In this document: positions 2,299 to 50,634 of the stretch, piece after piece | Layout: every line of letters starts with the position of its first letter | Position numbering within the stretch: position 1 is the first letter of the stretch | Source of the DNA: a virus | Lineage: Duplodnaviria; Caudoviricetes | Reading direction: 5' to 3' (one strand) | Length of the DNA stretch: 51,479 nucleotides | Virus record (IMG/VR): IMGVR_UViG_3300012232_000016 | Span: 1-51,479 of that record | Translations under genes and position numbers: made by a program | The notes under the pieces: generated by a model | Told to the model about the DNA's origin: nothing | What the model saw: the letters and a program-made list of their open reading frames with translations, nothing else | Database searches by the model: none

Positions 2299-2459
2299 GC
2301 TTCCTCCACCTCGTCAATGTCAAGGGCTTCGGCGTGAATGTTGCGGCGAAGTTCGTCAGCGAACTCGGTGATCTCACCCGCGTCCTCCTCTAGGAGCAGG
2401 CGGTTCCGTGCGTCGCTAACGTCGATGAGAATACGTGCTGTGATCTGGAGGGTAGGCAT
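2295..2459 (-). CDS. small acidic hypothetical protein
   Basis: MPTLQITARILIDVSDARNRLLLEEDAGE...DEVEEA; first ORF after the 2503-2531 promoter. Confidence 0.6.
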   Translation of the reverse strand: MPTLQITARILIDVSDARNRLLLEEDAGEITEFADELRRNIHAEALDIDEVEEA

Positions 2460-2502
2460 AAGGCCTCATACATTCACCGTATAGCTGTGCTGGAACGCGG
2501 AC

Positions 2503-2531
2503 ACAGTAACAGAAGGGTTATCCGAAGTCAA
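2503..2531 (-). promoter_or_regulatory. sigma70-type promoter for the queD/queE operon
   Basis: TTGACT-17 bp-TACTGT on the - strand. Confidence 0.65.
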
Positions 2532-5716: not shown

Positions 5717-5914
5717 GTGCAGGCACAACGATTCAAGATCCCTGTCAGGGAAGAATGTGGGCAACGATACCGCCTGTTGTTGCCCCAAGAGGTGGCCTGG
5801 TTTCGTGAGTTGTCTCACGACGAGGCCATGGAATCGATTTTCCTGTCATTCATCAACCCGCTCGTGAGGGTCTTTCCTGACGGGCTGTGGATAAGAGACA
5901 ATGGAACCCATTGA
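5717..5914 (+). CDS. hypothetical protein
   Basis: Short ORF overlapping the terS start. Confidence 0.4.
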   Translation: MQAQRFKIPVREECGQRYRLLLPQEVAWFRELSHDEAMESIFLSFINPLVRVFPDGLWIRDNGTH

Positions 5915-6446
5915 AGAGAAGCTGACGCCTAGACAGATACTCTTCATTCAAGAGTATCTGATCGACCTGAACGGGACAAAGGCAGCAATCAGAGCGGGTT
6001 ACAGCGAAGACAGTGCGACCGTGATCGCTTCTGACTTGCTGAAACTGACCAAGGTCTCTCAACGGATCGCGACCGCAGTTGAACAACGAGCCACGCGAAT
6101 CGGAATGACCCAGGCTCAGGTCCTGCATGAGATGTCCTTGCTGGCGAACTCACGGCTTGATTGGTTCGTCGTCAACGATGAGGGTCAGGTCGAACTCACT
6201 GAAGCGGCGCCAGAAGGCGCGATGGGTTGTGTCGCCTCGATCAAGCGCAAGGTGAAGATCTTCCCCGGTAAGGGTGACACCCCTGGTCACAAGGAATACG
6301 ACGTCGAACTTAAGTTCTGGGACAAGCCGGCACCGCTCAAGCTCATGGGGCGTCATACTGGGCTATTCCCTGACAAGGTTGAGGTGTCGGGCCCTAACGG
6401 CAAGCCTATTGAGACTGTGACGCGCATCGAACGGGTGATCATCTGA
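5901..6446 (+). CDS. terS: terminase small subunit
   Basis: LTPRQILFIQEYLIDLNGTKAAIRAGYS signature; lies before terL. Confidence 0.92.
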   Translation: MEPIEEKLTPRQILFIQEYLIDLNGTKAAIRAGYSEDSATVIASDLLKLTKVSQRIATAVEQRATRIGMTQAQVLHEMSLLANSRLDWFVVNDEGQVELTEAAPEGAMGCVASIKRKVKIFPGKGDTPGHKEYDVELKFWDKPAPLKLMGRHTGLFPDKVEVSGPNGKPIETVTRIERVII

Positions 6447-7795
6447 GCACGCTCCAGATCCAGACGCCAAGGAAACTCCTGCCTCTGCTTGAGCCTCACA
6501 GATATAAGGGCTTGCACGGTGGGCGTGGTGGCATGAAGAGCCACTTCTTTGCAGAACTGCTCATTGAAACCTGCATGCTCCGCGAGATCAGAGCCGTCTG
6601 CATCCGTGAGATCATGCAGTCCCTCAAGGAGAGTGTCAAGCGTCTGCTGGAAGATAAGATTGAAGCCTTCGGCGTTGGCGACAAGTTCAACGTCTTGAAC
6701 ACCCACATCGAAGCACCACACGGTGGCATTATTATCTTTGTCGGCATGCAGAACCATACGGCACAGAGCATCAAGTCGCTGGAAGGGTATGATATCGCCT
6801 GGGTTGAAGAGGCTCAGTCCTTGAGTTCTACCTCTCTTGAGCTTCTGCGACCTACTATCCGAAAAGAGACCTGCCGTCACTGCCTCAAGATCAAGGGAAA
6901 AGAAGATGTGCCATGCCTAGAGGGCTTCACACATCTATGGGACCCCTCTGAGATCTGGTTCTCTTGGAACCCTGATCAACCTACAGACCCTGTAGACAAG
7001 ATGCTCAGGCAGGATCGCCCACCTGATTCTGTGGTGATCAAGACAGGGTGGGAAGACAATCCTTGGTTCCCTGATGTCCTCCGTCGGGAGATGGAGTGGG
7101 ATCGTCAGGTTGATTCAGAGAAGTATGAACATGTTTGGGGTGGTGAATACGAGAAGCATTCTGAAGCTAGGGTCTTCAAGAACTGGCGGGTGGAAGCCTT
7201 TGAAGCGCCTCATAACGCGGTGTTCAATCTAGGCGCCGATTGGGGCTTCTCTGTGGACCCGAGCACGTTGGTTCGCTGCTACGAGCAGCGGGTTGATCCG
7301 CTGACGGGTCAGGCGTGGGCACGTAAGCGTCTCTACATTGACTATGATACCTACGGTGTTGGTGTAGAGATAGACGACCTGAACAAGCTATTCGATGGTC
7401 TGCTCTGCGGGTGTCATCCGTTAGCACCTGGCGTCTGCAAGGAACCCAGACTTCATGGGTGGGCGAGGCCTTGGAACATTGTAGCAGATTCTGCTCGCCC
7501 AGAGACGATCAGCTATCTGCGTCGATACGGTTATGCAAACATCGAGCCTGCCAAGAAGGGTGCCAATTCCGTCAAGGAGGGGGTCATCTTCTTACAGGGC
7601 TACGACATCATCATTCATCCACGATGCACACATACGATTGACGAGTTCAAGAACTACTCTTACGTCAAGGACAAGCTGACGGGGAAGGTGATTCCGGTTC
7701 TCGAGGATAAGAAGAACCACATCATTGACCCGATTCGTTACTCTGTAGAACAGCTCCGTGGCGCTCTGCGGATCAGAGAGGCAGTTTGGGGATAG
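6443..7795 (+). CDS. terL: terminase large subunit (PBSX/SPP1-like); probable CTG start
   Basis: YKGLHGGRGGMKS Walker A, AWVEEAQ Walker B, WFSWNP, GADWGF, ADSARPE, NHIIDPIRY; frame open back to a stop at 6410. Confidence 0.93.
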   Translation: MSTLQIQTPRKLLPLLEPHRYKGLHGGRGGMKSHFFAELLIETCMLREIRAVCIREIMQSLKESVKRLLEDKIEAFGVGDKFNVLNTHIEAPHGGIIIFVGMQNHTAQSIKSLEGYDIAWVEEAQSLSSTSLELLRPTIRKETCRHCLKIKGKEDVPCLEGFTHLWDPSEIWFSWNPDQPTDPVDKMLRQDRPPDSVVIKTGWEDNPWFPDVLRREMEWDRQVDSEKYEHVWGGEYEKHSEARVFKNWRVEAFEAPHNAVFNLGADWGFSVDPSTLVRCYEQRVDPLTGQAWARKRLYIDYDTYGVGVEIDDLNKLFDGLLCGCHPLAPGVCKEPRLHGWARPWNIVADSARPETISYLRRYGYANIEPAKKGANSVKEGVIFLQGYDIIIHPRCTHTIDEFKNYSYVKDKLTGKVIPVLEDKKNHIIDPIRYSVEQLRGALRIREAVWG

Positions 7796-8555: not shown

Positions 8556-8850
8556 GCCCAGGGACAAAGCAGAGTATCTCAGGCTGTTCGAACAGAACAC
8601 TAAGATCAAAGGCTTCGGGCTCAATGTGAGCCAGGAAGTGCCCTGCCCGTTCTGTGCGGCGCCCGGGTTCATGGAATACCGCATCATAGACTGTGAAGAG
8701 ATGATGTCTCAAGAGCATGTCTGCAAGGAGTGTGGTAGAGGTTCGAAGGCGCTTTTTCGCGTCACGCTCAATACGAAGTCATTCGAGTTCGTGCAAACAC
8801 AAGGTCCTGATCAGCCTGCTTGGCTCCTCCCTAGCATGAGGCGCATCTGA
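8548..8850 (+). CDS. zinc-ribbon protein
   Basis: CPFC and CKEC; TGATG coupling to the portal. Confidence 0.7.
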   Translation: MPEPRDKAEYLRLFEQNTKIKGFGLNVSQEVPCPFCAAPGFMEYRIIDCEEMMSQEHVCKECGRGSKALFRVTLNTKSFEFVQTQGPDQPAWLLPSMRRI

Positions 8851-10343
8851 TGCCCGTCAATACAACACGGAAAGACTACGAAGACATTCTGTCCAAGTGG
8901 GGCAGGCTCCGCGATTGCTTCAATGGTCGGGATGCGATCCTCAAGGCGGGGAGCAAGTATGTCCCGGAACTACCGGGCACGGATACAGCGGGCAATAGAG
9001 CCTATCGCGAACGTGGGAACTTCTATAATGCGGTGAGACGCACTGTGCAGGGCATGAACGGTGCCATCTTCCAGGAATCGCCCGAAGTTGAGATGCCCGA
9101 GACCATGAAGCCTCTGCTGGACGACATCACGCTCACGAACGTGCCCTTCGAGACATTCGCGACAGAGTCCGGCGTCGAGATCTTCTTGACTGGTCGTTTC
9201 GGCGTGCTGGTGGACATGCCCATGGCACCGAAGGGCATCACGGCCGCGGATACACCCTATGTAGACATGCGTCCCTATTGTGTGGGCTACAAGGCAGAAG
9301 ACATTATCAACTGGCGCACAGAACGTCGCGGCGGAGATGAAGTCCTCACGATGGTCGTGCTGCGAGAAATGGTTGAAGCCCCTAAGGACGATGACCCTTT
9401 CTGCACAGACAGGATCTGTCAGTATCGCGTCGTGATGCTGAATGAGTCCGGGCAGTGCATCCAGCAGATTTGGCGCGAGAAGTCCGATGATGGTGGTTAC
9501 GCCCAGTATGACGAAGATGTCCTACTGGTTCGGCGTGGTGAGCCTCTGGACTTCGTGCCATTCGTGTTCATGGGCGCGCTCCATCCGTCGCCGGACCTCG
9601 AACAGCCTCCGCTGATTGACCTCGCGGACGTCAACCTGGGCCATTGGCGTAATTCTGTGGACCACGAATACGGTCTGCATCTGGTCGCGCTCCCTACGCC
9701 ATGGGTGGCTGGTGCGAAGGGCACGGGCGATCAGAAGATGAAGATCGGGCCGTCTGTCGTGTGGGAGTTGGACGTGCAGGGTTCGGCGGGGATGCTGGAG
9801 TTCCAAGGCACGGGTCTTGGGGCGCTAGTCACGTCGATGGAGGAGAAGAAGAAACAGATGGCCACCTTGGGCGCCAGGTTGCTCGAGGATGCACCTTCTA
9901 CCGCGGAAACAGCCTCTGCGGTCAAACTTCGTCATGCAGGTGAAACGGCGTCACTCAAGACGGTCGCGCAGAGTCTGGAGCAGGGCTTCGGCCAGGCGCT
10001 TCAGATGTGTGTCTGGTGGCTTGGCACAGATCAGACACCTGCGGAGGCGGAAGTCACGGTGGAATTGAACAAGGAATACCTGGACATCCGGGCCACACCT
10101 CAGGAGATTCAGGTCGCGCTCACAGCCCTTCAGGCAGGTGAGATCAGCTTTGAGACGTGGTATGATCTCCTGCAGAAGGGTGGCTGGGCACGTGAAGGGG
10201 TTGATGCTGAATCGGAGCAGGAGGACATCGCGACGGCCAAGGCGAAACTGCCTAAGGAGCCCGCGATCGACCCGGAACTCAGCCCGAACGAACCTCCGCT
10301 CAAGCCTGGTGATCCGGGCTACAAGGCACCGGTGGCGGCGTGA
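8850..10343 (+). CDS. portal protein (DUF4055-like)
   Basis: 497 aa after terL; FYNAVRRTV, IINWR, PPLIDLADVNLGHW, LGARLL. Confidence 0.88.
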   Translation: MPVNTTRKDYEDILSKWGRLRDCFNGRDAILKAGSKYVPELPGTDTAGNRAYRERGNFYNAVRRTVQGMNGAIFQESPEVEMPETMKPLLDDITLTNVPFETFATESGVEIFLTGRFGVLVDMPMAPKGITAADTPYVDMRPYCVGYKAEDIINWRTERRGGDEVLTMVVLREMVEAPKDDDPFCTDRICQYRVVMLNESGQCIQQIWREKSDDGGYAQYDEDVLLVRRGEPLDFVPFVFMGALHPSPDLEQPPLIDLADVNLGHWRNSVDHEYGLHLVALPTPWVAGAKGTGDQKMKIGPSVVWELDVQGSAGMLEFQGTGLGALVTSMEEKKKQMATLGARLLEDAPSTAETASAVKLRHAGETASLKTVAQSLEQGFGQALQMCVWWLGTDQTPAEAEVTVELNKEYLDIRATPQEIQVALTALQAGEISFETWYDLLQKGGWAREGVDAESEQEDIATAKAKLPKEPAIDPELSPNEPPLKPGDPGYKAPVAA

Positions 10344-11301: not shown

Positions 11302-11898
11302 ATGAAGCGAAGTCGCCGTAGAGCTGTCAAGAATGGGGCTTTGAAGGGTATTCATATGCCCTCCTATCACCAGCAGGATTCAAGGAAGACTGTGGTGATG
11401 GAATGGCGCGTCGGGCTGCAAGGCATGCGCCAACGGAAACGTTATCTCACAGCCAAGGTCAGACACATCTTGGACTCCAAAGATCCGCACGTGATCATCG
11501 CAGGTCAGCGAGCGGTGATGGCCGTTAAAGACGAACCGGATCCGGAGTTTGCCTCCCTGCATCTCTTCGCTTCAGCGGTCGATGCCTGCGCGGATACGGG
11601 TGAGCCGTGGGATGTGTGCATGAACTACTTCATGGACAGATTCGACGCTCAACAGAAGGATGAGGCGCCTACAGATGCCCCGCCAACCAAAAGAGATTCA
11701 AATCGTTCACGCTTCGGCGGATTACTACGAGCCTTTATTCCGCGCTCGCTTCGTGCGGGCGATGAAGAAGCTCCAGGTGGAGACGAGCGTGACCGCCCTG
11801 GCGGCAACGCTGGGGAATGCGAAACAAGCCAGGAACATCATCCCCCGGAAGAAGATCGAAGAGGCTCTGACCCAGTCGGTCAAGAAAGTCCTGCGTGA
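11302..11898 (+). CDS. hypothetical protein overlapping the next gene by about 220 nt
   Basis: GAGGTGG RBS; low-complexity C-terminus in the overlap. Confidence 0.45.
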   Translation: MKRSRRRAVKNGALKGIHMPSYHQQDSRKTVVMEWRVGLQGMRQRKRYLTAKVRHILDSKDPHVIIAGQRAVMAVKDEPDPEFASLHLFASAVDACADTGEPWDVCMNYFMDRFDAQQKDEAPTDAPPTKRDSNRSRFGGLLRAFIPRSLRAGDEEAPGGDERDRPGGNAGECETSQEHHPPEEDRRGSDPVGQESPA

Positions 11899-11959
11899 TG
11901 CCTTCATGCGCGGTGGGAAACTAGGGGCTGAACACGTGAAGGATCTGCTGCGTGGCTAA
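11675..11959 (+). CDS. helical protein, possibly the N-terminal half of a split MuF
   Basis: Amphipathic helices; 8-nt overlap with MuF. Confidence 0.55.
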   Translation: MPRQPKEIQIVHASADYYEPLFRARFVRAMKKLQVETSVTALAATLGNAKQARNIIPRKKIEEALTQSVKKVLRDAFMRGGKLGAEHVKDLLRG

Positions 11960-12527
11960 GAAGAACGTCATCGACTTCCGTTTTGACAGCAAGGCTGAAG
12001 ACGCGGTCAAAGCCGCGGAGCGGATGGCTGGGCAGATGATCACGGAGATCACGGATGAGACAGAGAAGAACATCCGGAATCTAATTGCCACTGCGATCCG
12101 TGAAGGTATCCCCCCGCATGAGGCGGCGCAGACGATTGTGCCGCTGATTGGCTTGACCTCTGCCCAAGGCCAGGCGGTTCTGAAGTATCGCAAGGAACTG
12201 ATTGATGGTGGACTGAGCCCGGACAAAGTCGAGAAGAAGGTTGACGCCTACGCGGGCGACCTCCTCGAGTCACGCGGCGAAAGTATTGCACGCACAGAAA
12301 TCATGGATGCCCTTAATACGGGGCAAGATGAGGCATGGCAGCAGGCGCAGGAAGATGGCCTGCTCTCTGACAATGCCACCAAGGAGGTGATTCTGACCGG
12401 TGATGCCTGTCCGATATGCGTGGACATTGCGGATGAAGGCCCTATCCCTGTAGGAGAGAACTTTAGTGAAGACGGGCCGCCTTTTCATCCTCAATGCAGA
12501 TGCACCGTAGGGATCGCGACACCATGA
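11952..12527 (+). CDS. MuF / SPP1 gp7-like minor head protein
   Basis: IARTE, CPIC, PPFHPQCRC motifs. Confidence 0.88.
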   Translation: MAKKNVIDFRFDSKAEDAVKAAERMAGQMITEITDETEKNIRNLIATAIREGIPPHEAAQTIVPLIGLTSAQGQAVLKYRKELIDGGLSPDKVEKKVDAYAGDLLESRGESIARTEIMDALNTGQDEAWQQAQEDGLLSDNATKEVILTGDACPICVDIADEGPIPVGENFSEDGPPFHPQCRCTVGIATP

Positions 12528-12742
12528 GTGTGGTAGCGATGCCCTTGCGTGGTCGTCCACGGAAAGAGACTGAAGCCCTGACTGAAGTGCTCTCGTTCGC
12601 TTGCACGAAGCAGGAAGCTGATGCCATGCACGTCCAGGCCCGACAAGCCGGTTACAAATCCGTAAGTGCTTACATTCGGAAGCGCACCAAGGAGTTAGGT
12701 CTTTTCGCTAAGATCAAAGACGTGTCTCAGCAACCCGTGTAA
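12524..12742 (+). CDS. small DNA-binding protein (GRPRK plus ribbon-helix-helix-like)
   Basis: RGRPRK then strand-helix-helix ending SVSAYIR. Confidence 0.6.
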   Translation: MSVVAMPLRGRPRKETEALTEVLSFACTKQEADAMHVQARQAGYKSVSAYIRKRTKELGLFAKIKDVSQQPV

Positions 12743-12758
12743 TATAAGGAGCACACAG

Positions 12759-13586
12759 ATGGCCCAGCTTGCGCCCGTGGTAGACAAACTCGAGGACGTG
12801 CCTGAACCCGCACGTCAGTTCTACGTCCCCAAAGAAGGCAAGTTTCATGTCGACTTGAATGGAGCCCCTGCGGGCTTCGTGCCCGCGACTGACCTGGCCC
12901 TTGCCAACGGCAAGGTGGTGGAGTTCCGCGACACCAACATCGCGTTGAAGAAGACCGTCGATGAACTGACGCCGCTCAAAGACAAATACAAGGACATTCC
13001 GGATCCGGTCGCTGCGAAGTTGGCACTGGACAAGGTGGCGGAGTTGGAGAAGAAGGGCATCACCAAGCCGGACGACGTCACAGCGGCCGTGAATGCGGCG
13101 CTGGAACAGTTCAAGACGTCAGTCGTGAAGCCCTTGAACGATCAACTCACGGCGATCACGACCGCGAACACGGAGAACGCCAAACGCGCCGATCAGATGA
13201 CGCTGCGTTCGAAGGTCAGCGATCTCTTCACCAAGGCTGGTGGCGTGCCTGATGCGCTGGACTTCATCGTCGGCAAGACGAACGGCGTGTTCATCGTCGA
13301 GGGCGGTGCCGTCAAGGCGGCACCCAATCAGTTCAGCGCGGACAAGCCTGGCGATCCCCTCACGGTGGAAGAGTGGGTGACGCGCCAGACGAAGGAATCC
13401 CCGTTTGCATTCAAGACGTCGGGTGGCGGCGGTGCTGCCCCCGCGGGTGGAGGCGGCGGTGGCACGCCAAGGGCTGGCGTGACGGTCATCAAAGACCCGT
13501 CACCTCAGGACCTGGGCAAATACGCGGCCGACGTCAAGGCCGGTAAGGTGCGATTCGAGTATTCAGAGAACAAGGTCGGTTCGTAA
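12759..13586 (+). CDS. capsid scaffolding protein
   Basis: LEDVPEPARQFY N-terminus, coiled coil, FAFK..GGG tail; TAAGGAG RBS; precedes MCP. Confidence 0.8.
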   Translation: MAQLAPVVDKLEDVPEPARQFYVPKEGKFHVDLNGAPAGFVPATDLALANGKVVEFRDTNIALKKTVDELTPLKDKYKDIPDPVAAKLALDKVAELEKKGITKPDDVTAAVNAALEQFKTSVVKPLNDQLTAITTANTENAKRADQMTLRSKVSDLFTKAGGVPDALDFIVGKTNGVFIVEGGAVKAAPNQFSADKPGDPLTVEEWVTRQTKESPFAFKTSGGGGAAPAGGGGGGTPRAGVTVIKDPSPQDLGKYAADVKAGKVRFEYSENKVGS

Positions 13587-13588
13587 GA

Positions 13589-13766
13589 CCTGACGCTTAT
13601 GGGTAGCTGGGGCGGTGCCCCCGCTACCCATCTCGGCGAGATAGCGTTAGGATAGCTTCCAGATAGAGGATGTTCGTTCGGTGAATGAACATCTTGGCCC
13701 GCCTCGGTGAGGACGTTGGCCCGGCTTCGGTGAAGTCGCTTGGTGACATCAACACTGTTATCCAAG
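13589..13766 (+). ncRNA. structured leader / candidate cis-regulatory RNA with five C-GGY-G triloop hairpins
   Basis: Hand-paired stems 13601-13629, 13630-13642, 13667-13695, 13702-13712, 13722-13738; outer stem 13589-13597/13643-13651; G-U pairs. Confidence 0.65.
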
Positions 13767-13779
13767 AGGAGACTGCACA

Positions 13780-14916
13780 ATGGCCGGAGCAATGGTAACC
13801 ACCAACATTCTGGGGACGACAGTCTCGATGGGTCTTGCGACCTTGCGAGAATTCCTCGCCCTGGTATTAATCGCCAATCGCAACTACGAAAGCGAGATCA
13901 CCGCCGCGAAGAAGTTCGCGACCGTGAACGTGTCTGTGCCCGCTGCGGTCACGACACGAGACGTGACGCCCGACGTCGTGCCGCCCGCGGTCACGGCTGT
14001 GACGCCGACCAGCATCCCCGTGACGCTGGACAAGTGGCGTGAGGCGCCGTTCGCGATGGACGACAAGGGTCTGTCGCAGGTGGATCGGGGCATCCTGCCC
14101 ATGGAAGTTTCCGAGGCCAGCAAGGCCCTCGCGAACTACATAGAAGACGACATGTGGGCGCGCCTGACGGCATCGCTCTACCTGTTCGCAGGCACGGGCG
14201 GCGTCACGCCCTTCGCCACCGACCTGAGCGCGTATCTGGACGCCCGAAAGTTGGGCAACAAGGCGTTGATGGCGCTGGATCCCAGATACGTCATTCTGGA
14301 CACGGATTCCGAGGCGAATGCTTTGGGACTTCGTGCCTTCCAGGATGCGTCCTTCGGTGGTGGTGATGGCGTCATCATGAACGGGCAGATCGGGCGCAAG
14401 CTCGGCGCGCTCTGGATGATGTCGCAGCGGGTGCCCACGCATACCGCAGGCACGTATACCACAGGCACGACGGTCACTGGCGTCAATGCCATCGGCGCGA
14501 CGGTCATTGCACTGTCCGGTGGTGCAACAGGCACACTGATCGCGGGTGACATCATCGGCATCGGTGCGTTCACCTACAACGTCGTGTCCAGCGTCGGTGG
14601 CGGCACGCCGTCCAGCGTGACCATCACACCCGGGCTGTTCGCAGCCACCGCGGGTGGTGAGGCCATCGTCAAGAAGGGCTCGTTCGTGCAGAACGTGCTC
14701 ATTCAGAGGGACTGCCTGACGTTCGCCATGGCACCACTGATTGACACCGTTCAGGTGCCAGGCGCGTCGTTGCAGGCGGTTGCGATCGACGAGGTTTTTG
14801 GTCTGGCGCTCAGGCTGGAAGTCACGCGGCAGCACAGACAGGTTCAGTGGTCCTTCGACGCTCTGTGGGGCGGGAAGGCCATCCGGGCCAACGCAGGCGT
14901 CTACATCGCCGGATAA
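13780..14916 (+). CDS. major capsid protein (P22 coat-like, with insertion domain)
   Basis: 378 aa after scaffold; ANRNYE, TVNVSVP, WSFDALWG; Gly/Thr-rich beta insertion; GAGGAG RBS. Confidence 0.85.
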   Translation: MAGAMVTTNILGTTVSMGLATLREFLALVLIANRNYESEITAAKKFATVNVSVPAAVTTRDVTPDVVPPAVTAVTPTSIPVTLDKWREAPFAMDDKGLSQVDRGILPMEVSEASKALANYIEDDMWARLTASLYLFAGTGGVTPFATDLSAYLDARKLGNKALMALDPRYVILDTDSEANALGLRAFQDASFGGGDGVIMNGQIGRKLGALWMMSQRVPTHTAGTYTTGTTVTGVNAIGATVIALSGGATGTLIAGDIIGIGAFTYNVVSSVGGGTPSSVTITPGLFAATAGGEAIVKKGSFVQNVLIQRDCLTFAMAPLIDTVQVPGASLQAVAIDEVFGLALRLEVTRQHRQVQWSFDALWGGKAIRANAGVYIAG

Positions 14917-14934
14917 CGTCAACAACGGCTGGGA

Positions 14935-14958
14935 GGGGAGAGCTAAGACAGTCTCCCC
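14935..14958 (+). terminator. hairpin after MCP (weak terminator or mRNA stabiliser)
   Basis: GGGGAGA...TCTCCCC stem; weak U-tract. Confidence 0.4.
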
Positions 14959-14994
14959 CGACATTCCTTTCACCAAAGAAAGCGAGACCGTTAC

Positions 14995-15471
14995 ATGGGA
15001 GATCTTCGCAATTACCCCGAAGGGCGTGGCGCACAAGTCGCCCGCTACATCAAAGACGTCCTGGTCGAGTTCGGTGTGGCCAAGGCGTTCCGCACCCGCT
15101 ACACGCTGGCACAACTGAACGCAGGCCAGACACTACTCCCTGCACTCCCTGGCGTCAAGTGGCGCCTACTGGGCGGGGCGCTCATCGCTGTGGGCGGAAA
15201 CGCGGGTGCAGCGACCTCCGTGAACTTCGTCGGCACGCAGGCAGCGGGGGCGGTGCAACTCTGGATCGTGACCATTGCGGCACTGACCCGAAGCACATTC
15301 GTCAATATCGGCGTGACGCCTGCAGCGGGCACCAGCACGATTCTGGCAGACGGTGCGTCCATGGCGGCAAACGACGTCAATACGGCCGTGCTGTTAGCCA
15401 ACGTGGGCGCTGCGATGACCACGCTGACATCGATCGACGTGTTCGTAGACTACGTGGCAGATCAGGGCTAA
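14995..15471 (+). CDS. virion protein, possible head decoration
   Basis: Ala/Gly/Val beta-rich; follows MCP. Confidence 0.6.
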   Translation: MGDLRNYPEGRGAQVARYIKDVLVEFGVAKAFRTRYTLAQLNAGQTLLPALPGVKWRLLGGALIAVGGNAGAATSVNFVGTQAAGAVQLWIVTIAALTRSTFVNIGVTPAAGTSTILADGASMAANDVNTAVLLANVGAAMTTLTSIDVFVDYVADQG

Positions 15472-15474
15472 GAC

Positions 15475-16002
15475 ATGCCTGTCTCTGCACTGGTCATCAC
15501 GGCGGGGTCTGCATCGGCGAACGCCTACTGCGATTTGGCGTTCGCCGAGCAATATCAACTTGATCGTCCCGCCGTAGGCACGACGTGGTCTGCGGCCACG
15601 TTGGACCAGAAGAATTCGAGCATCTTGTGGGCCACAAAGTTACTGGATGATCTGTGGGACTGGGCAGGCTGGTCCACGGATGCGATCCAGGCGCTGTTGT
15701 GGCCGCGCATGGGCATGGTCAAGAAGAACGGTTGGGAGTATGTGGATCAACACACAATCCCCATTGAACTTCAACAGGCGACCGCTGAATATGCCCGTCA
15801 GCTGTTGGCTGGTGACCTCGCAGGAAACAGCCAGATTGAGACATTGGGTATCACATCACTCAAGGCCGGTTCAGTCGCACTCACATTCAGGGAATCTGTG
15901 ATTGCGAAACCCGTGCCTGATACGGTGTTCTATCTGATTCCTCCGTCATGGGGTTGCCCACGAAGCAGGAACAAGGGCTATCGGGAGGCAATAAGAGCAT
16001 GA
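15475..16002 (+). CDS. head-tail adaptor (DnaT-like family)
   Basis: ANAYCDLAFA and QALLWPR motifs; position. Confidence 0.75.
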   Translation: MPVSALVITAGSASANAYCDLAFAEQYQLDRPAVGTTWSAATLDQKNSSILWATKLLDDLWDWAGWSTDAIQALLWPRMGMVKKNGWEYVDQHTIPIELQQATAEYARQLLAGDLAGNSQIETLGITSLKAGSVALTFRESVIAKPVPDTVFYLIPPSWGCPRSRNKGYREAIRA

Positions 16003-41811: not shown

Positions 41812-42039
41812 TCAATCTAGAATGTAGGGGTTACCCTTGAATGTGACGCTTGTATTGCCGAACTTCTGCGTGCCTTCTATATGCCAACTCTTCTTCTTGA
41901 CAGCAGGTGCGCCTATCTGTTTCTCCATCACGAAATGAACCGTATCATGATTGCAGAATGGTGAGGGAGCATCAGATGACCTGACAAGCACCTCACGCAC
42001 TGCCCCGCATTCCGGGCACTTGTAATCGAAGAGAGGCAC
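41812..42039 (-). CDS. FmdB-like zinc-ribbon protein
   Basis: MPLFDYKCPECG. Confidence 0.75.
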   Translation of the reverse strand: MPLFDYKCPECGAVREVLVRSSDAPSPFCNHDTVHFVMEKQIGAPAVKKKSWHIEGTQKFGNTSVTFKGNPYILD

Positions 42040-42863
42040 TAGAGCAGCCCACCCTTCACAGGGAATTTTCCTGCCGCTGCCGCCGCAGCGATCTCACGCA
42101 TGTCAGGAGGGAAGCCGTTGATCGGGTTCGCGATGTAATCGAAGTAGTCCCTAGGCACTTCTTTCATCGGGCGCGGGCCGTTTTTGGCATGTTTGCCGAA
42201 GGTGATACAGGCCACATCGTTCACCCAGAGGAACTTCCCCGCTCTGTCAATCGCATTGGGCTTCTGAGGGAAGCACCAGAGTTCTAGTTCTTTGACGTTG
42301 CGGGGTAGATCTGAATGCCGGAGCAGTTGCCCACGAAGTGCCATCTCTGTGGCTTGGACGTCCACGCCGGCATTATGAGCACCATCCAGTATATGCCCCG
42401 GAGGCAGAGGTTCACCGTTGTCGCCGCCATATTCCAGATAAGCGTTCGTTAGATTATGAGGCTTCTTCCGCTTGTAGATGCGGTAGGCATCGATCACGCA
42501 ACCAGACCACTCCCATGTGACACCAGAACGGCGCATCTCAGCTCGGAGAAATGTGATATCGAAATCGACATTGTATCCGGCGATGTCAACGTGCAGGATC
42601 TTGGGAGCCAAGGCCGGTGCAATCTGCAGGAATGACGGGCTGTCCTTAACGGCCTCATCAGTGATGCCATGGCTTTCCGAGGCGTTCCTGATAGGGATGC
42701 CCGGGTTGACCAAGGACATCCATTGAATGGGATCACGATGCGGATAGTGGATGGTCAACGCAATCTGCACGATGCGTTCTTTCTCCGCGTCGAAGCCAGT
42801 CGTCTCTAGATCCAGCACAGCGAGCGGACGCTCGAGCGTCAGATAGTTAGCGAGATTCAACAA
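42039..42863 (-). CDS. DEDDh 3'-5' exonuclease (DnaQ-like)
   Basis: LDLETTG, GYNVDFD, HNAGVD; C-terminal ITFGKH. Confidence 0.9.
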   Translation of the reverse strand: MLNLANYLTLERPLAVLDLETTGFDAEKERIVQIALTIHYPHRDPIQWMSLVNPGIPIRNASESHGITDEAVKDSPSFLQIAPALAPKILHVDIAGYNVDFDITFLRAEMRRSGVTWEWSGCVIDAYRIYKRKKPHNLTNAYLEYGGDNGEPLPPGHILDGAHNAGVDVQATEMALRGQLLRHSDLPRNVKELELWCFPQKPNAIDRAGKFLWVNDVACITFGKHAKNGPRPMKEVPRDYFDYIANPINGFPPDMREIAAAAAAGKFPVKGGLL

Positions 42864-43089
42864 GTCGCACCTGCACTGCCCGGAGTCCGTTGTTCTTGGC
42901 CCCGGGATCTGTATTGAGTTTGCCTGTGGGCTCGAAGGTCACTTCTTGACCTTCGTGGAGTGTATCGAAGTCGGATACAGGCTCTATGTCCTTCGCATAG
43001 ATAAAGCGTGATTGATTATCCACAGGGCTCCGCACGAAGGCATAGCCCGAGTTGAGCCTCACCGACGTGATCGTTCCAGTCCTTCGCAT
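42847..43089 (-). CDS. cold-shock domain protein
   Basis: GYAFV (RNP1-like), LHEGQEVTFE, GLRAVQV. Confidence 0.8.
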   Translation of the reverse strand: MRRTGTITSVRLNSGYAFVRSPVDNQSRFIYAKDIEPVSDFDTLHEGQEVTFEPTGKLNTDPGAKNNGLRAVQVRLVESR

Positions 43090-43560: not shown

Positions 43561-44637
43561 TCATAATCTCATCCCCATGATCACATTGATGTATTCCCCA
43601 TCGCTGAAGAGTGCGGGGGAATCAGCATGCTGAAAAGACAACGTAACCTTCTCACCTGTGGCCGCAGAGAGAAAGTCTAGAATGAACTGCCCCTGAAACT
43701 TGAAGTTGAGATCGGGTCCGTCGTATTCTACCACGAGCCTTTCTACGCCGTCCCCTACTTCAGCACTCGCAGCGGAAAGGTCCAAGGTGAACGCCTTGAG
43801 TGAGAGCGCCACGATATCATGGATCAACACCAATCTCTTTAGCACACTGGCGAACTCGAGCCTACTGACGGTGACCTTGTGCGTATTGTTCTTTGGGATG
43901 ATGCGTTCATAGGCAGGAAACTTCCCGTCTACCTGCCTCGAAATCAAAAGACGTGCATCCACATCAAAGAATAGGTGCCTATCACTTTGTGCGAACATGA
44001 CATCACCATCACCCGGTTCTGCCAAGAGCGCAGATAGTTCGTCCAGACACTTCGAGGGCACCAATACAGCCTCACGCATCGGACCCGTGCGCTTGAACGT
44101 TGTGAGCGCGAGCCTGGCGGAGTCCGTTGCGGCCATCAACAGACTATCTTCATTGAATGCGACGTAGGCGCCTTTGGTGTAGAAGCGTGAGTCCTTGTCG
44201 CTGATAGCAAAGCGCACTTGGGCGACAGCATCCTTCAATGGAGCGCGTGGGATGGCGTATTGCGTGAGTCCATCACCGTTCGGAATACCCACGAAGTCTG
44301 CCGCGGGTAGTGATTGAAGCCTGGACTGAAACCCTCCGGAATTGAACTTCACAGCACCCTTGGCATCACTCTTCATGGTGACCTTAGTATCAGACTGCGC
44401 CCGCACCAAGTCTAAGAGTTTCTTGGCAGGCAGTGTGATAGCACCGGCCTCCATCACATCCGCCGCACAGCCACTGATCAATCCGATCTCTAGATCCGTG
44501 GCGGCCATAGAGAGCCCGCCCATCTCTGCACGGATCAAGACATTGGAGAGCACGCTGATGGTAGGCTTCTTGCCGATGACCTTTTCCAGCAGGTTCAACT
44601 CACGCAGGAGATCAGAATTCTGAACGGTGATGTCCAT
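43561..44637 (-). CDS. dnaN: DNA polymerase III beta sliding clamp
   Basis: 358 aa; LSNVLI, ATDLEI, ATDSARLA, GKFPAYERIIP, VIMGMRL. Confidence 0.93.
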   Translation of the reverse strand: MDITVQNSDLLRELNLLEKVIGKKPTISVLSNVLIRAEMGGLSMAATDLEIGLISGCAADVMEAGAITLPAKKLLDLVRAQSDTKVTMKSDAKGAVKFNSGGFQSRLQSLPAADFVGIPNGDGLTQYAIPRAPLKDAVAQVRFAISDKDSRFYTKGAYVAFNEDSLLMAATDSARLALTTFKRTGPMREAVLVPSKCLDELSALLAEPGDGDVMFAQSDRHLFFDVDARLLISRQVDGKFPAYERIIPKNNTHKVTVSRLEFASVLKRLVLIHDIVALSLKAFTLDLSAASAEVGDGVERLVVEYDGPDLNFKFQGQFILDFLSAATGEKVTLSFQHADSPALFSDGEYINVIMGMRL

Positions 44638-45035
44638 CAGGTGATTCTCAGACGTCGCATATGTTGCTCCGAGATGTAGTTCGCTACCCAGCCGAAGTCA
44701 AAGTAGGGTGTTCGCACCTCTGACTTCACCCATTGATCCAATTTCTCAGGCTCAACGATCAAGACTTGCTTCAGTCCTCCGCGATCCTCAAAGATGATGT
44801 AACGACAGAAGGATGCCCGGTCCAACCGCCTGCACATTATATGCTGGTTCTCTGGCGATTCAAATGGTGCATTGTTGTAGAATTTCACTTCCCACCAACT
44901 GGTCCAATCGCGCCAGATATTGGAGAAGTCTGGGTAGCCTCCTTTAGACCTCTCTGTGTGCGTGAGCTGGACGGAACCAGGCATTCGGAGCTTGGCACGT
45001 TGCAGCACACCCGCCTTGAGGGTGCCTTCGTTCAA
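44637..45035 (-). CDS. VRR-NUC / PD-(D/E)XK nuclease
   Basis: GYPDF...WWEVK...Q; TTGA overlap with the polymerase stop. Confidence 0.65.
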   Translation of the reverse strand: MNEGTLKAGVLQRAKLRMPGSVQLTHTERSKGGYPDFSNIWRDWTSWWEVKFYNNAPFESPENQHIMCRRLDRASFCRYIIFEDRGGLKQVLIVEPEKLDQWVKSEVRTPYFDFGWVANYISEQHMRRLRIT

Positions 45036-47683: not shown

Positions 47684-48902
47684 GTGAGAAGACTGGGTCC
47701 TGTTCGCCGTTCCGTTCAAAGGCCTTACGGCGCATAAAACAGGGACCGCATTTGCCGCAGTGACCTGTTCCGCCGCGGTAACAAGACCAGGTGGATTCAA
47801 AGGGCGCAGAGATCTGCAGTCCCAGCTTCACGATCTCGTGCTTCATCAAATGTCCGACAGGACTCAGCAGACGCATGGCATAGTGGGCCCGCACGGCGTA
47901 GGGCATCGCGTCGTTGAGCAGTGTAGTGAACTGCTCTTCATTGTCCGGGTAAGCGCCAGCCTCTTCCAGGTTGTTCCCAAGTGCCACCGCGTGCCATCCG
48001 TTCGCTTCCGCCCAGGCTGTCGCCAACGAGATGAATACCAGATTTCGTCCAGGCACCCATTCGTGAGCGAATTCAGCCCCTTGGATCGCGGGTGTGATTG
48101 CGTCCTCAGACCCGAACAACGTGGATGATGCCCTACCCAGCATTGCCTTCAGATCTACAGGCATGAACGCCGCCTGGCATTTCAATTTCTTCGCGATCTG
48201 ATGAATCGCTTCACGTTCCCTGACCTCGGCTGCACAGCCATAGGTGAAATGTAAAAGACAGACGTTCCAACCGTCGCGCACCAGACGGGTCGCGGCCACT
48301 GTGCTATCGAGGCCTGAGGACGCGATGACAACGGCACTCTTGCTGTCTTCGCGCTTGAGACTGACCACTTCACCTGTCAGGAAGTCGATGGCGGTGTAGG
48401 GCTTGAGTTGAACAGGCGCATGACCGAATCTCGCCACGCCTTCAAAATGACGCGCCATGGACGAGAAGTAGATGGAGCCCCTGAGTTCGAAATAGTAGAG
48501 GGGCTTGTAGTTCGTCGCCGCCAGAACTGATCGGCCATTAAAGCACGCCAGAGCATAGGAGCCTTTCACATCTTGCAGACTGCGAGCCAGCTTGCTGACA
48601 CTCTCCCGATTGATGAACCTTGCCAGTGCCTGGCTGTCAATCTCATCAGGCTTCGCACCGATCTCGAGATCGTTGGCAATGGTGCCATTGTGGACCATCT
48701 GATCGTAGGGCTGGAGATCTCCGATCATGGGTTCGGGTGTAGGTGTGGCGCGCCAGTTGCCCAACATGACACTCCATCCGTTGAGAGAGACGTAACGTTC
48801 CATCCGCCCACCGTCACGCCCCCGATCACGTGCCTGGTCACGAATGGCGTCCAGGATGGCGTCGTTGACAGTTGGGCCAAGGGCGCCGTAGATGCTACAC
48901 AT
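47664..48902 (-). CDS. gat-queC: Gat-QueC fusion (Ntn glutamine amidotransferase plus preQ0 synthase)
   Basis: N-terminal MC nucleophile, RGRD, HNGTI, IDS; QueC SSGLDS, VPGRN, YPD, TWSCY, CGKCGPC. Confidence 0.92.
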   Translation of the reverse strand: MCSIYGALGPTVNDAILDAIRDQARDRGRDGGRMERYVSLNGWSVMLGNWRATPTPEPMIGDLQPYDQMVHNGTIANDLEIGAKPDEIDSQALARFINRESVSKLARSLQDVKGSYALACFNGRSVLAATNYKPLYYFELRGSIYFSSMARHFEGVARFGHAPVQLKPYTAIDFLTGEVVSLKREDSKSAVVIASSGLDSTVAATRLVRDGWNVCLLHFTYGCAAEVREREAIHQIAKKLKCQAAFMPVDLKAMLGRASSTLFGSEDAITPAIQGAEFAHEWVPGRNLVFISLATAWAEANGWHAVALGNNLEEAGAYPDNEEQFTTLLNDAMPYAVRAHYAMRLLSPVGHLMKHEIVKLGLQISAPFESTWSCYRGGTGHCGKCGPCFMRRKAFERNGEQDPVFSHDSLEA

Positions 48903-49734: not shown

Positions 49735-49907
49735 CGTTTTACCAGAAAAACAGGTCTTCCTGGCCAAAGAATGGATTTATCCTCAGGTCCTTTCAAGAAT
49801 GATTCTATATAGATTGGTTCTATAGTTTTTCTAGTAGGATAAGGTTGGTTTCTCCAGTGTCCTCTCACCCACCAACGATGTTCTCGATCACGATATGATT
49901 CTCTCAC
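49731..49907 (-). CDS. 58-aa VRGHWR-motif protein
   Basis: (V)RESYRDREHRWWVRGHWRNQPYPTRKTIEPIYIESFLKGPEDKSILWPGRPVFLVKR; GTGA overlaps with folE stop and dpdA start. Confidence 0.75.
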   Translation of the reverse strand: MRESYRDREHRWWVRGHWRNQPYPTRKTIEPIYIESFLKGPEDKSILWPGRPVFLVKR

Positions 49908-50467: not shown

Positions 50468-50634
50468 GAGCCCTTCTTCTTTGACTTCGCTGTCACAGTC
50501 GCCTGTGGCGGACAAGTGCGACGATCCGTGTAGATCTGCCCGTTGGGGAGTCTCCAGTGGATCTCTACGACTTGATCGTGCTGGGCAAAGCAGGGGACCG
50601 TTTCGTCTCTCACGCGATGTTCGTTATTGACCAT
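50464..50634 (-). CDS. small hypothetical protein
   Basis: MVNNEHRV...KKKGS; ATGA overlap with folE. Confidence 0.5.
   Translation of the reverse strand: MVNNEHRVRDETVPCFAQHDQVVEIHWRLPNGQIYTDRRTCPPQATVTAKSKKKGS

What the first reader, a model, noticed from the sequence alone, without database searches (positions are those of the whole stretch)
13589..13766. Five C-GGY-G triloop hairpins in the major capsid leader
Seen: the scaffold-MCP gap folds into five hairpins with unrelated stems but the same capped loop: GGGGC-GGT-GCCCC (extended by GGGTAGC/GCTACCC), ATCTC-GGC-GAGAT, AGGATGTTCGTTC-GGT-GAATGAACATCTT, CCTC-GGT-GAGG and CGGCTTC-GGT-GAAGTCG. The first two sit inside an outer stem (CCTGACGCT/AGCGTTAGG), and a sixth stem (about 13739-13766) abuts the GAGGAG RBS. 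G-U pairs on the + strand favour RNA-level structure. Inference: a multivalent protein-binding RNA, analogous to CsrA GGA-loop arrays, setting scaffold:capsid stoichiometry, or a processed ncRNA.
Basis: partly seen in the sequence, partly recalled or inferred. Interest (0 to 1): 0.75.

Follow-up and report, generated by a model that had tools for sequence, protein, structure and literature searches.

The report
Triloop hairpin array gating capsid translation
The untranslated stretch in front of this phage's major capsid gene is a conserved, uncatalogued folded RNA: a row of small hairpins that all carry the same three-base loop, the last of which competes with a helix that hides the capsid gene's ribosome-binding site, so it most likely controls how much capsid protein is made.

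Summary
The 193-nt gap between the scaffold gene (12759-13586) and the major capsid gene (13780-14916) holds five C-GGY-G triloop hairpins. About 0.03 are expected, and none of 5000 shuffles gave more than two.

It is not a chance fold. About 77 distinct leaders of related uncultured phages carry one to six such hairpins. Stems differ, but the cap is conserved as YYC-GGU-GRR (154 distinct hairpins). Compensatory changes are abundant and G·U pairs favour the + strand. Cultured Vibrio phages (Mardecavirus) carry two C-GGG-G hairpins in the same leader. Rfam and the literature searches gave nothing.

New here: the fifth hairpin is mutually exclusive with a longer helix. That helix pairs its loop and 3' arm with the SD-AUG spacer, and its 5' arm with capsid codons 1-3. 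It is predicted to be about 10 kcal/mol more stable across the family, against 1.7 for shuffled tails.

Best reading: a translational switch whose hairpins are docking sites for an unidentified factor, probably phage-encoded. It resembles a CsrA array only by analogy. No partner was identified and no expression data were available.

The parts
12759..13586 (+). head scaffolding protein gene (upstream cistron)
   Evidence: phrog_206, E 4.8e-16. tblastn finds a homologue upstream of the MCP gene in 135 of 152 related loci.
13589..13651 (+). Domain 1: outer stem (13589-13597 with 13643-13651) enclosing H1 (13601-13629, C-GGU-G loop) and H2 (13630-13642, C-GGC-G loop). It starts 3 nt after the scaffold stop codon.
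   Evidence: Present in the MFE and the ensemble: mean pair probability 0.97 for the outer stem, 1.00/0.99 for H1, 0.78 for H2. The H2 stem shows compensatory changes in 13 close relatives.
13652..13666 (+). mostly single-stranded A/U-richer linker between domain 1 and H3; a possible endonuclease entry site
   Evidence: Largely unpaired in the MFE; 13654-13658 is drawn in a weak outer closure of domain 2. A linker is seen in the leaders of relatives. Its role is inferred.
13667..13695 (+). H3: 13-bp hairpin with a C-GGU-G triloop
   Evidence: Mean pair probability 0.98. Relatives have a different stem with the same cap at this position.
13696..13721 (+). H4: lower stem GGCC/GGCC, an internal loop, and a 4-bp top (13702-13712) with a C-GGU-G triloop
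   Evidence: All 4 top pairs show double changes, and 93.9% of cells pair across 46 sequences. RNAalifold keeps both the lower and the upper stem.
13722..13738 (+). H5: 7-bp C-GGU-G hairpin, the proposed anti-sequestor; mutually exclusive with form B
   Evidence: 96.6% of cells pair, 4 of 7 pairs show double changes, and the closing C-G is kept in 46 of 46 sequences. Its ensemble probability in the window is about 0.00.
13739..13766 (+). H6: hairpin with a large loop whose 3' arm abuts the SD
   Evidence: Mean pair probability 0.80 for the outer 5 pairs. 78.4% of cells pair and 3 of 5 pairs show double changes.
13766..13779 (+). SD (GAGGAG 13766-13771, core GGAG 13768-13771) and the 8-nt spacer 13772-13779
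   Evidence: Read from the sequence. The spacer is unusually conserved in relatives and is complementary to the loop and 3' arm of H5.
13722..13786 (+). Form B, the sequestering helix. 13722-13726 pairs with 13782-13786 (the G of AUG plus codon 2 and the first base of codon 3). 13730-13732 pairs with 13776-13778. 13734-13737 pairs with 13771-13774 (the last G of the SD plus the spacer). H6 sits at the tip.
   Evidence: Mean pair probabilities 0.92-0.99 in the window. Form B is lower in energy than the H5 form in 42 of 44 relatives. The energy gain is -10.0 against -1.7 kcal/mol for shuffled tails.
13780..14916 (+). major capsid protein gene (P22-coat-like)
   Evidence: PF11651, E 9.8e-8; phrog_283, E 5.5e-48.

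Best explanation
The scaffold-capsid gap is a cis-acting regulatory leader of the capsid mRNA, and it works as a two-state translational switch.

Shown by computation:
1. There is a conserved array of hairpins whose stems vary but whose caps are kept as YYC-GGU-GRR.
2. The last hairpin (H5) and a longer helix (form B) are mutually exclusive. Form B buries the end of the SD, the spacer and the start codon region.
3. Both conformers are maintained across the family.

Inferred:
1. Form B is the default OFF state.
2. A trans-acting factor recognises the triloop hairpins.
3. When it occupies the array, including H5, H5 is stabilised, the ribosome-binding site is released and capsid protein is made.
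4. The factor is most likely phage-encoded, because all the loops of a leader change together in some lineages. Scaffold, portal and capsid protein are the candidates, since they are the head proteins shared with the Vibrio phages that carry the same hairpins. If so, capsid synthesis would be tied to the supply of assembly partners.
For: Enrichment and strand.
- C-GGN-G hairpins with stems of at least 5 bp occur at 12.4 per kb on the + strand of 67 leaders, against 0.20 per kb in the rest of the same loci.
- There are 114 CGGTG-capped hairpins on +. Only 73 of their mirror images reach 5 bp on -, so G·U pairs favour the + strand.
- 121 of 1139 stem pairs are G·U.

Cap selection.
- Among 154 distinct hairpins (found by requiring a closing C-G and a middle-loop G), the first loop base is G in 133 and A in 15.
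- The two pairs under the closing C-G are pyrimidine-purine in 128 and 138 of the 154.

Covariation.
- On 46 sequences 90.3% of cells pair.
- There are 104 double-change cells against 22.4 in shuffles (0 of 500 shuffles as high), and slid controls pair at 39-54%.

The switch.
- The duplex of the H5 loop and 3' arm with the spacer averages -8.0 kcal/mol, against -4.3 for shuffled spacers. 32 of 44 sequences have z below -1.64. Swapping spacers between sequences gives -6.39 +/- 0.27.
- Form B is lower in energy than the H5 form in 42 of 44 sequences.
- The MFE minus the H5-forced energy is -10.0 kcal/mol, against -1.7 for shuffled tails. In 39 of 43 sequences at most 5 of 100 shuffles go as low.
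- RNAalifold on 13 leaders chooses form B.
- A marine relative (L155) keeps the middle helix with different bases.
- Opening the capsid ribosome-binding region costs 16.7 kcal/mol, against 8.7 for the scaffold gene.

Location.
- In three near-complete genomes the only cluster of these hairpins is at this leader.

Cultured relatives.
- Mardecavirus leaders have a terminator, conserved -35 and -10 boxes, then two C-GGG-G hairpins with one G-C to A-U compensation.

Concerted loop changes.
- L134 has GUU in three hairpins, L084 has GUU and GUC, and L083 has GUA.
- Within-leader concordance is reached by 68 of 5000 permutations, and these loops sit in two separate places on the capsid tree.
Against: - No binding factor was identified or tested, and there are no RNA or structure-probing data (no RNA run was listed).
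- All energies are nearest-neighbour predictions. Form B may be over-weighted, and co-transcriptional folding would favour H5.
- The outer helix of form B pairs with protein-constrained codons. It shows complementarity (87-88% paired, against 2-59% when slid) but almost no covariation: one pair, GC 19 and AU 9, and possibly a single event.
- The Vibrio phage leaders have the hairpins but no form-B complementarity by my reading of their sequence. The hairpins therefore do something without the switch.
- It is odd for the most needed late protein to carry a locked ribosome-binding site.
- The loop concordance is modest (p about 0.014) and rests on two or three lineages.
- Nine leaders had no hairpin under the C-NGN-G definition. 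Some of these are definitional, such as the GUN loops or a mis-called start.
Confidence: 0.5

Rival explanations
1. A purely RNA-intrinsic element with no dedicated factor. The hairpins are nuclease barriers: a 3' stabiliser for the scaffold segment and 5' stem-loops for a processed capsid mRNA. They would also keep Rho off the long untranslated gap. The H5/form-B exchange would be driven by co-transcriptional folding and ribosome occupancy.
For: - The gap has no promoter or terminator, so the genes are co-transcribed.
- A mostly single-stranded linker separates domain 1 from H3.
- In Mardecavirus a terminator and a promoter-like site sit where domain 1 and the linker sit here.
- The stems are very stable.
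Against: - A barrier needs no particular loop. Yet the cap YYC-GGU-GRR is kept in 154 distinct hairpins whose stems have diverged completely.
- The loops change together within leaders.
- Such caps are not used elsewhere in three genomes.
Confidence: 0.2
2. A nut-like antitermination site. The hairpins would act as boxB-type handles on the nascent RNA. They would load a phage or host factor onto RNA polymerase so that it reads through to the tail genes.
For: - It is a hairpin array with a conserved loop and variable stems.
- In Mardecavirus the hairpins lie shortly downstream of a promoter-like site and after a terminator.
Against: - The last hairpin is wired to the ribosome-binding site, not to a terminator.
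- No terminator-like site was found from 12400 to 15600 on the + strand.
- No N- or Q-like protein turned up in the Pfam and PHROG scans that were run, which covered 45 ORF entries and not the full set.
- The loops have 3 bases, not the 5-base boxB loop (boxB recalled).
Confidence: 0.08
3. A sponge or target for a global host regulator of the CsrA/RsmA type.
For: There are several G-rich loops in one leader.
Against: - 16 of 154 loops end in A, so GGA is a minority. The loops are triloops and none overlaps the SD.
- The family spans soil, groundwater and marine phages, and prophage copies lie in an Acidobacteriota MAG.
- Loop dialects differ between lineages.
Confidence: 0.03
4. A DNA-level element: single-strand DNA hairpins acting as promoters for a phage RNA polymerase (N4 type) or as a priming or origin signal.
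For: The stems are short and the loops have 3 bases with a central purine, which resembles what I recall of N4 virion-polymerase promoters.
Against: - No RNA polymerase gene was found among the ORFs scanned.
- Stems range from 4 to 16 bp.
- G·U pairs favour the transcript strand.
- The position is fixed in front of the capsid start and is coupled to the ribosome-binding site.
Confidence: 0.02
5. A processed stable non-coding RNA that acts in trans.
For: The fold is compact and stable (z -4.63).
Against: - There is no promoter or terminator of its own.
- The 3' part overlaps the capsid start.
- The number of hairpins varies from 1 to 6.
Confidence: 0.04

Closest known systems
Phage Mu Com / mom mRNA translational activation (recalled, not read here)
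   Same: A factor binds a hairpin upstream of a sequestered translation start and so opens it. This is the working analogy for H5 against form B.
   Different: Mu has one site and a zinc-finger protein, and the target is a DNA-modification gene. Here there are one to six repeated triloop sites in front of a capsid gene, and the factor is unknown. A Zn-ribbon ORF (41812-42039, -) is present in 3 of 5 relatives searched, but nothing ties it to the leader.
Lambda cIII mRNA two-conformer switch and riboswitch expression platforms (recalled)
   Same: Two mutually exclusive folds, only one of which exposes the ribosome-binding site.
   Different: There is no aptamer-like junction or conserved internal loop here. 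The sensor is a repeated hairpin cap.
CsrA/RsmA-binding leaders and CsrB/RsmZ sponges
   Same: Several stem-loops with a shared G-rich loop in one RNA, giving multivalency.
   Different: The defining GGA in a penta- or hexaloop and the overlap with the SD are not met. The host range is far too broad for one host regulator.
Iron-responsive element and other C-NGU-G pseudo-triloop protein sites (recalled)
   Same: A C-G pair closes a three-base R-G-U turn that a protein reads. AGU occurs as a minority loop here (first loop base A in 15 of 154).
   Different: These are true triloops with no extra 3' loop base and no conserved bulged C. The context is bacterial phage.
P22 scaffolding-protein post-transcriptional autoregulation, and the old proposal of a portal-mRNA interaction in P22 assembly
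   Same: The capsid type (P22-like coat) and the gene order (scaffold then coat) are the same. There is precedent that head proteins feed back on late mRNA.
   Different: I saw only the titles of Casjens & Adams 1985, Wyckoff & Casjens 1985 and Bazinet et al. 1990, in the reference list of PMC5529062, plus one sentence of its introduction. No RNA site is known to me for P22.
Hairpin arrays and RBS-hiding leaders noted earlier in this scan in other phage capsid leaders (e1-6011672, e1-5290125, e1-5889057)
   Same: The arrays have the same loop on different stems in a capsid 5' UTR, or the leaders hide the capsid ribosome-binding site.
   Different: The sequences, loops and phage groups are different. 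Those are unchecked notes that I did not test.

Membership tests
Any Rfam 15 family | covariance-model match at or near the gathering score | tested here: not met
   In window 13000-14400 at E up to 10, the only match is mir-939 at 19.3 bits against a gathering score of 84. In 20 related loci at E up to 1 there are 0 matches.
CsrA/RsmA binding array | GGA core presented in hairpin loops of 5-6 bases | tested here: not met
   The loops have 3 bases. The third loop base is A in 16 of 154 distinct hairpins, U in 89, C in 31 and G in 18.
CsrA/RsmA binding array | one site overlaps the SD of the regulated gene | tested here: not met
   The SD GGAG (13768-13771) lies outside every triloop hairpin.
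Iron-responsive-element-like pseudo-triloop | six-base loop with a C-G cross-pair plus an unpaired sixth base, and a bulged C below | tested here: not met
   The stems continue directly after the closing G, and no conserved bulge was seen. The definition is recalled.
Lambda-type nut site (boxB) | five-base purine-rich loop on a short stem, with boxA nearby | tested here: not met
   The loops have 3 bases. I did not search for boxA. The definition is recalled.
N4-type hairpin promoter | short DNA hairpin with a 3-base loop and a central purine | tested here: inconclusive
   The shape fits for the short hairpins, but stems range from 4 to 16 bp and G·U pairs favour RNA. The definition is recalled.
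N4-type hairpin promoter | phage encodes the hairpin-reading virion RNA polymerase | tested here: not met
   No RNA polymerase was found among the 45 ORF entries scanned, which include all ORFs over 400 aa. The largest, of 1228 aa, matches no PHROG family.
Intrinsic terminator / attenuator | G+C-rich hairpin followed by a U run | tested here: not met
   There is no terminator-like site on the + strand from 12400 to 15600.
Sequestor / anti-sequestor translational switch | a helix that buries the SD and/or the start codon | tested here: met
   Form B has mean pair probabilities of 0.92-0.99 in the window. It is favoured in 42 of 44 relatives, and 39 of 43 beat 95 of 100 shuffled tails. This is prediction only.
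Sequestor / anti-sequestor translational switch | an upstream hairpin that shares a strand with the sequestor, so the two exclude each other, and both are conserved | tested here: met
   H5 covaries, and its 3' arm also matches the spacer.
Sequestor / anti-sequestor translational switch | a signal (protein, ligand or ribosome) that shifts the balance | not testable with these tools
   No RNA-protein prediction or expression data were available.

The most novel reading that the evidence does not exclude
A head-assembly protein of the phage (scaffold or portal) reads the YYC-GGU-GRR triloop array on the capsid mRNA and unlocks the capsid ribosome-binding site. Capsid protein would then be made only where and when its assembly partner is available. 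This would be an mRNA-borne assembly checkpoint, with lineage-specific loop 'dialects' co-evolving with the protein. It would also give a molecular site to the decades-old hints of scaffold and portal feedback on late mRNA in P22-like phages.
Probability: 0.2. Interest if true: 0.85.

Novelty: new variant of a known kind. Interest (0 to 1): 0.66.

Why it matters
How tailed phages set the ratio of capsid protein to scaffold and portal is usually put down to promoter and SD strength. Here a whole family carries a dedicated RNA device in front of the capsid gene. The family includes soil, groundwater and marine contigs, prophage copies in an Acidobacteriota MAG and, in reduced form, cultured Vibrio phages.

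The device has a simple repeated recognition motif and a clear ON/OFF geometry, so it can be tested with reporters. The cultured Mardecavirus phages offer a system for looking for the partner. The element is also a candidate new RNA family for Rfam. It could serve as a compact part for phage engineering, as a hairpin-gated ribosome-binding site.

Tried and rejected
- Rfam gave nothing.
- Literature searches gave no paper on this motif. The terms covered triloop/capsid/intergenic, scaffold/capsid/stem-loop/UTR, 'GGU triloop', SSP002 transcription, and translational activation/alternative structure (listings and abstract starts only).
- For RNA evidence, no RNA holder was listed for window 12800-14800.
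- I scanned IMG/VR for three spaced copies of the 7-base cap. Among the new loci (L168 onward), 12 matches in 6 loci had all sites on stems, and all were tandem direct repeats of one unit, not arrays with different stems. This says little about other families.
- I looked for a phage RNA-binding candidate:
  - The weak cold-shock-domain ORF (42847-43089, -; 21.7 bits, below the cut-off of 27) was found in 0 of 5 relatives.
  - The NikA-like ribbon-helix-helix ORF (12494-12742) was found in 4 of 152 loci.
  - The Zn-ribbon ORF (41812-42039, -) was found in 3 of 5 relatives, but not in SSP002 or in the L063 record.
  - None is tied to the leader.
- A relay from the scaffold stop codon does not work. 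Masking the 5' strand of the outer stem did not bring H5 back in the fold.
- A leader peptide in the Vibrio phage leader is ruled out, because the frame is not kept in MAR10 (my reading of the alignment).
- More distant P22-coat phages have no leader. Acinetobacter phage qsb1 has a gap of 12 nt and MW202864 a gap of 29 nt.
- The promoter scan did not call the Mardecavirus promoter. By my count its -35/-10 spacing is 19 nt, outside the tool's 16-18. I call it promoter-like by eye and by conservation of the two boxes.
- I built no covariance model and ran no structure or complex prediction.

Full report
**What the window is.** It is a 51,479-base IMG/VR virus record estimated 96% complete. The finding lies in the head module. 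This runs small terminase (5901-6446), large terminase (6512-7795), portal (8850-10343), a MuF-like head-morphogenesis protein (11952-12527), scaffold (12759-13586, phrog_206), a P22-coat-like major capsid protein (13780-14916; PF11651, phrog_283) and an Ad1 adaptor (15475-16002). The 193-nt gap 13587-13779 is the finding.

**Checking the observation.**
- A mechanical scan for C-GGY-G triloops on stems of at least 4 pairs gives 5 in the gap. The rest of the window holds 14 on both strands, so 0.026 are expected, Poisson P about 1e-10.
- In 5000 dinucleotide-preserving shuffles of the gap, 4857 gave none, 140 gave one and 3 gave two.
- The + strand folds at -95.2 kcal/mol (z -4.63). The - strand folds at -78.3 (z -3.14).
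- No sigma-70-like promoter or intrinsic terminator is called in the gap.
- Rfam gives only a sub-threshold miRNA match.

**Conservation.**
- Searching with the capsid protein and then with an alignment of it brought in 5, 69, 77 and 3 loci from viral, metagenome and genome collections. A capsid start was located in 125 of the 146 loci scanned (L016-L161), giving 81 distinct upstream regions.
- The scaffold-capsid gap measured 42-426 nt, mostly 90-300.
- Folding each gap separately, 218 of 374 predicted hairpin loops are triloops. The commonest closing-plus-loop strings are CGGUG 101, CGGCG 32, CGGGG 16, CAGUG 10 and CGGAG 10.
- In 67 leaders, C-GGN-G hairpins with stems of at least 5 bp occur at 12.4 per kb on the + strand. 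The rate elsewhere in the same loci is 0.20 per kb, and it is zero on the leaders' - strand.
- The 114 CGGUG hairpins on + correspond to only 73 mirror images of at least 5 bp on -. So about a third need G·U pairs that exist only in the + strand transcript.
- Collapsing identical copies leaves 154 distinct hairpin sequences. Their stems are 4-16 bp and unrelated in sequence.
- The cap is constant. These 154 were found by requiring a closing C-G and a middle-loop G. The first loop base is G 133, A 15, U 6. The third is U 89, C 31, G 18, A 16.
- The two pairs beneath the closing pair are pyrimidine on the 5' side in 128 and 138 of the 154.
- 121 of 1139 stem pairs are G·U.
- Leaders carry 1 (5 leaders), 2 (15), 3 (10), 4 (24), 5 (14) or 6 (2) such hairpins. 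Nine had none under this definition.
- On a 46-sequence alignment of the last 95 nt, the H4 top, H5 and H6 pair in 90.3% of cells. There are 104 double-change cells against 22.4 in shuffles (0 of 500 as high), and slid controls pair at 39-54%. The H5 closing C-G is kept in 46 of 46.
- Twenty relatives have no Rfam match at E up to 1.
- In three near-complete genomes (the window, G002, G003) the only cluster of such hairpins is this leader.

**Cultured relatives.**
- The only cultured phages with a detectable homologue of the capsid protein are 41 Vibrio phages (36-38% identity in the records listed; Mardecavirus), two uncultured records and one weak Acinetobacter hit.
- In SSP002, MAR10 and vB_VneS_S3 the scaffold-capsid gap holds three things in order. 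First comes an intrinsic terminator (called by the scan). Then come two invariant hexamers that look like -35 and -10 boxes around a diverging spacer. The scan did not call these; the spacing is 19 nt by my count. Last come two adjacent C-GGG-G triloop hairpins, one of which shows a G-C to A-U compensation in MAR10.
- In the 76-kb SSP002 genome there are 25 hairpins of the looser class C-RGN-G on both strands. Two adjacent ones inside this roughly 115-nt leader are therefore unlikely by chance, about 2e-4 by my estimate.
- This places the hairpins in the capsid 5' UTR as RNA.
- Two other P22-coat phages have gaps of 12 and 29 nt and no such leader. The element is therefore a family trait and not universal.

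**The switch.**
- The window's MFE does not contain the fifth hairpin. In the ensemble H5 has probability about 0.00.
- Its parts pair elsewhere. 13730-13732 pairs with 13776-13778. 13734-13737 pairs with 13771-13774, the last G of the SD and the first spacer bases. 13722-13726 pairs with 13782-13786, the G of AUG plus codon 2 and the first base of codon 3. Mean pair probabilities are 0.92-0.99, and H6 sits at the tip.
- I call this form B. It is not a quirk of one sequence.
- In 44 relatives the duplex between the H5 loop plus 3' arm and the spacer averages -8.0 kcal/mol, against -4.3 for shuffled spacers. 32 of 44 have z below -1.64. Giving each sequence another sequence's spacer weakens it to -6.39 +/- 0.27.
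- With H5 forced, the 3' segment averages -19.7 kcal/mol. With the H5 3' arm forced to pair downstream it averages -29.0. B is lower in 42 of 44; in the other two my script had picked a different hairpin. The ribosome-binding window is 59% unpaired in A and 35% in B.
- B was almost unconstrained in that comparison, so I added a control. The MFE minus the H5-forced energy is -10.0 kcal/mol for the real sequences and -1.7 when the last 10 nt before the AUG and the first 12 coding nt are shuffled. In 39 of 43 sequences at most 5 of 100 shuffles go as low.
- RNAalifold on 13 close leaders independently returns H2, H4 and a form-B register.
- A marine relative (L155) keeps the middle helix with different bases.
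- The outer helix pairs with codons that the invariant N-terminus fixes. It shows conserved complementarity in two possible registers (87.0% and 88.5% paired, against 2-59% when slid), but only one covarying position: GC 19, AU 9, and 17 unpaired where the Ala codon ends in A. That may be a single event.
- H5 itself is supported independently. Its pairs at alignment columns 48/56 and 49/55 covary, although the 5' bases of these pairs are unpaired in the window's form-B register.
- The predicted cost of opening -18 to +12 of the capsid start is 16.7 kcal/mol, against 8.7 for the scaffold gene. It ranks sixth of 41 starts tested, and four of the five above it lack an SD-like sequence and may be mis-called.

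**Who reads the loops?** A shared cap on unrelated stems implies recognition.
- In some lineages all loops of a leader depart together from the otherwise constant middle G. L134 has GUU three times, L084 has GUU and GUC, and L083 has GUA. In L083 I see three by eye, but only one passes the 5-bp filter.
- Within-leader concordance of non-G middle bases is reached by 68 of 5000 permutations.
- On a FastTree of 62 capsid proteins these leaders sit in two separate places (branch supports were not examined).
- This favours a partner that can co-evolve, meaning a phage protein. A fixed host component such as the ribosome fits less well.
- By tblastn only the capsid protein, portal and DNA polymerase are detectably shared between the window and SSP002. 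The scaffold proteins share function and position.
- Small candidate ORFs are not consistently present.
- I could not test binding.
- A sentence in PMC5529062 mentions an earlier proposal of an obligate portal-mRNA interaction in P22. Its reference list names the two 1985 papers on post-transcriptional autoregulation of the P22 scaffold gene. I could not read those papers. What they show is recalled, not verified.

**Mechanism proposed.**
- Shown by computation: the array, its conservation, the strand, and the two exclusive conformers.
- Inferred: B is the OFF state, occupation of the hairpins by a factor stabilises H5 and frees the ribosome-binding site, and the upstream hairpins add avidity or cooperativity.
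- Alternatives are given as rivals. The main one is a factor-free stabiliser and processing element whose switch is driven by folding kinetics and ribosome traffic.

**Comparison with known systems.**
- It works like sequestor/anti-sequestor translational switches such as Mu Com-mom and lambda cIII (both recalled).
- Like CsrA-type arrays it is multivalent.
- It is a member of neither family. The CsrA-defining GGA loop and SD overlap were tested and are not met, and no Rfam family matches.
- Earlier notes of this scan describe other capsid-leader hairpin arrays and RBS-hiding leaders in unrelated phages. I did not test them. They suggest a wider theme.

**Verdict.** This is a real, conserved and uncatalogued cis-regulatory RNA of a widespread phage family. 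The hairpin array is confirmed and a ribosome-binding-site switch is newly recognised. The partner and the sign of regulation remain open.

Noticed in passing
window 47664-48902 (-), 49904-50515 (-): A glutamine amidotransferase / QueC-like ORF (phrog_10428, phrog_1550) and a GTP cyclohydrolase I ORF (PF01227, E 8e-60). Together they look like a 7-deazaguanine (queuosine-type) pathway, so the phage may modify its DNA.
   Followed up: no
window 45032-47800 (-), 43561-44637 (-): The DNA polymerase carries an N-terminal ParB-like domain (phrog_723, residues 39-180). The phage also encodes its own three-domain beta sliding clamp.
   Followed up: no
window 12494-12742 (+): A small NikA-like ribbon-helix-helix ORF (26.0 bits, just under the cut-off of 27) lies between the MuF-like gene and the scaffold gene. 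Found in only 4 of 152 related loci.
   Followed up: partly
window 41812-42039 (-) and 42847-43089 (-): A Zn-ribbon ORF (PF09723) is present in 3 of 5 relatives searched. A weak cold-shock-domain ORF (21.7 bits, below cut-off) is present in 0 of 5.
   Followed up: partly
L165 1285-1480 (Vibrio phage SSP002); L166, L167: The Mardecavirus scaffold-capsid gap has a terminator, conserved -35 and -10-like boxes with a 19-nt spacing, and two C-GGG-G hairpins. This is a cultured system in which the hairpins could be tested.
   Followed up: partly
L134, L083, L084 leaders: Loop 'dialect': all triloop hairpins of these leaders carry G-U-N instead of G-G-N. In L028/L030/L031 and L025/L075 the upstream hairpins use A-G-N while the last one stays GGU.
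   Followed up: partly
L162, L163 (one contig of a Marinacidobacterales MAG): Two copies of the capsid gene with the same leader lie 1.3 Mb apart in one Acidobacteriota MAG contig. These are probably two prophages and give a hint about the host.
   Followed up: no
L225 about 2400-2520 (+); also L187, L255: Unrelated viral contigs carry tandem direct repeats in which each unit is a perfect hairpin capped by the same TCGGTGA string. In L225 three units of about 35 nt lie upstream of an ORF.
   Followed up: no
window 11660-11959 and 11952-12527 (+): The MuF-like head-morphogenesis region appears as two overlapping ORFs in different frames. The second matches only the C-terminal part of the PHROG profiles. 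This could be a split gene or a frameshift.
   Followed up: no
window 12759, 13780, 18420 (+): Three late genes (scaffold, capsid and the ORF at 18420) all start ATGGCC after an AAGGAG/GAGGAG SD. Only the capsid start is predicted to be hard to open.
   Followed up: no
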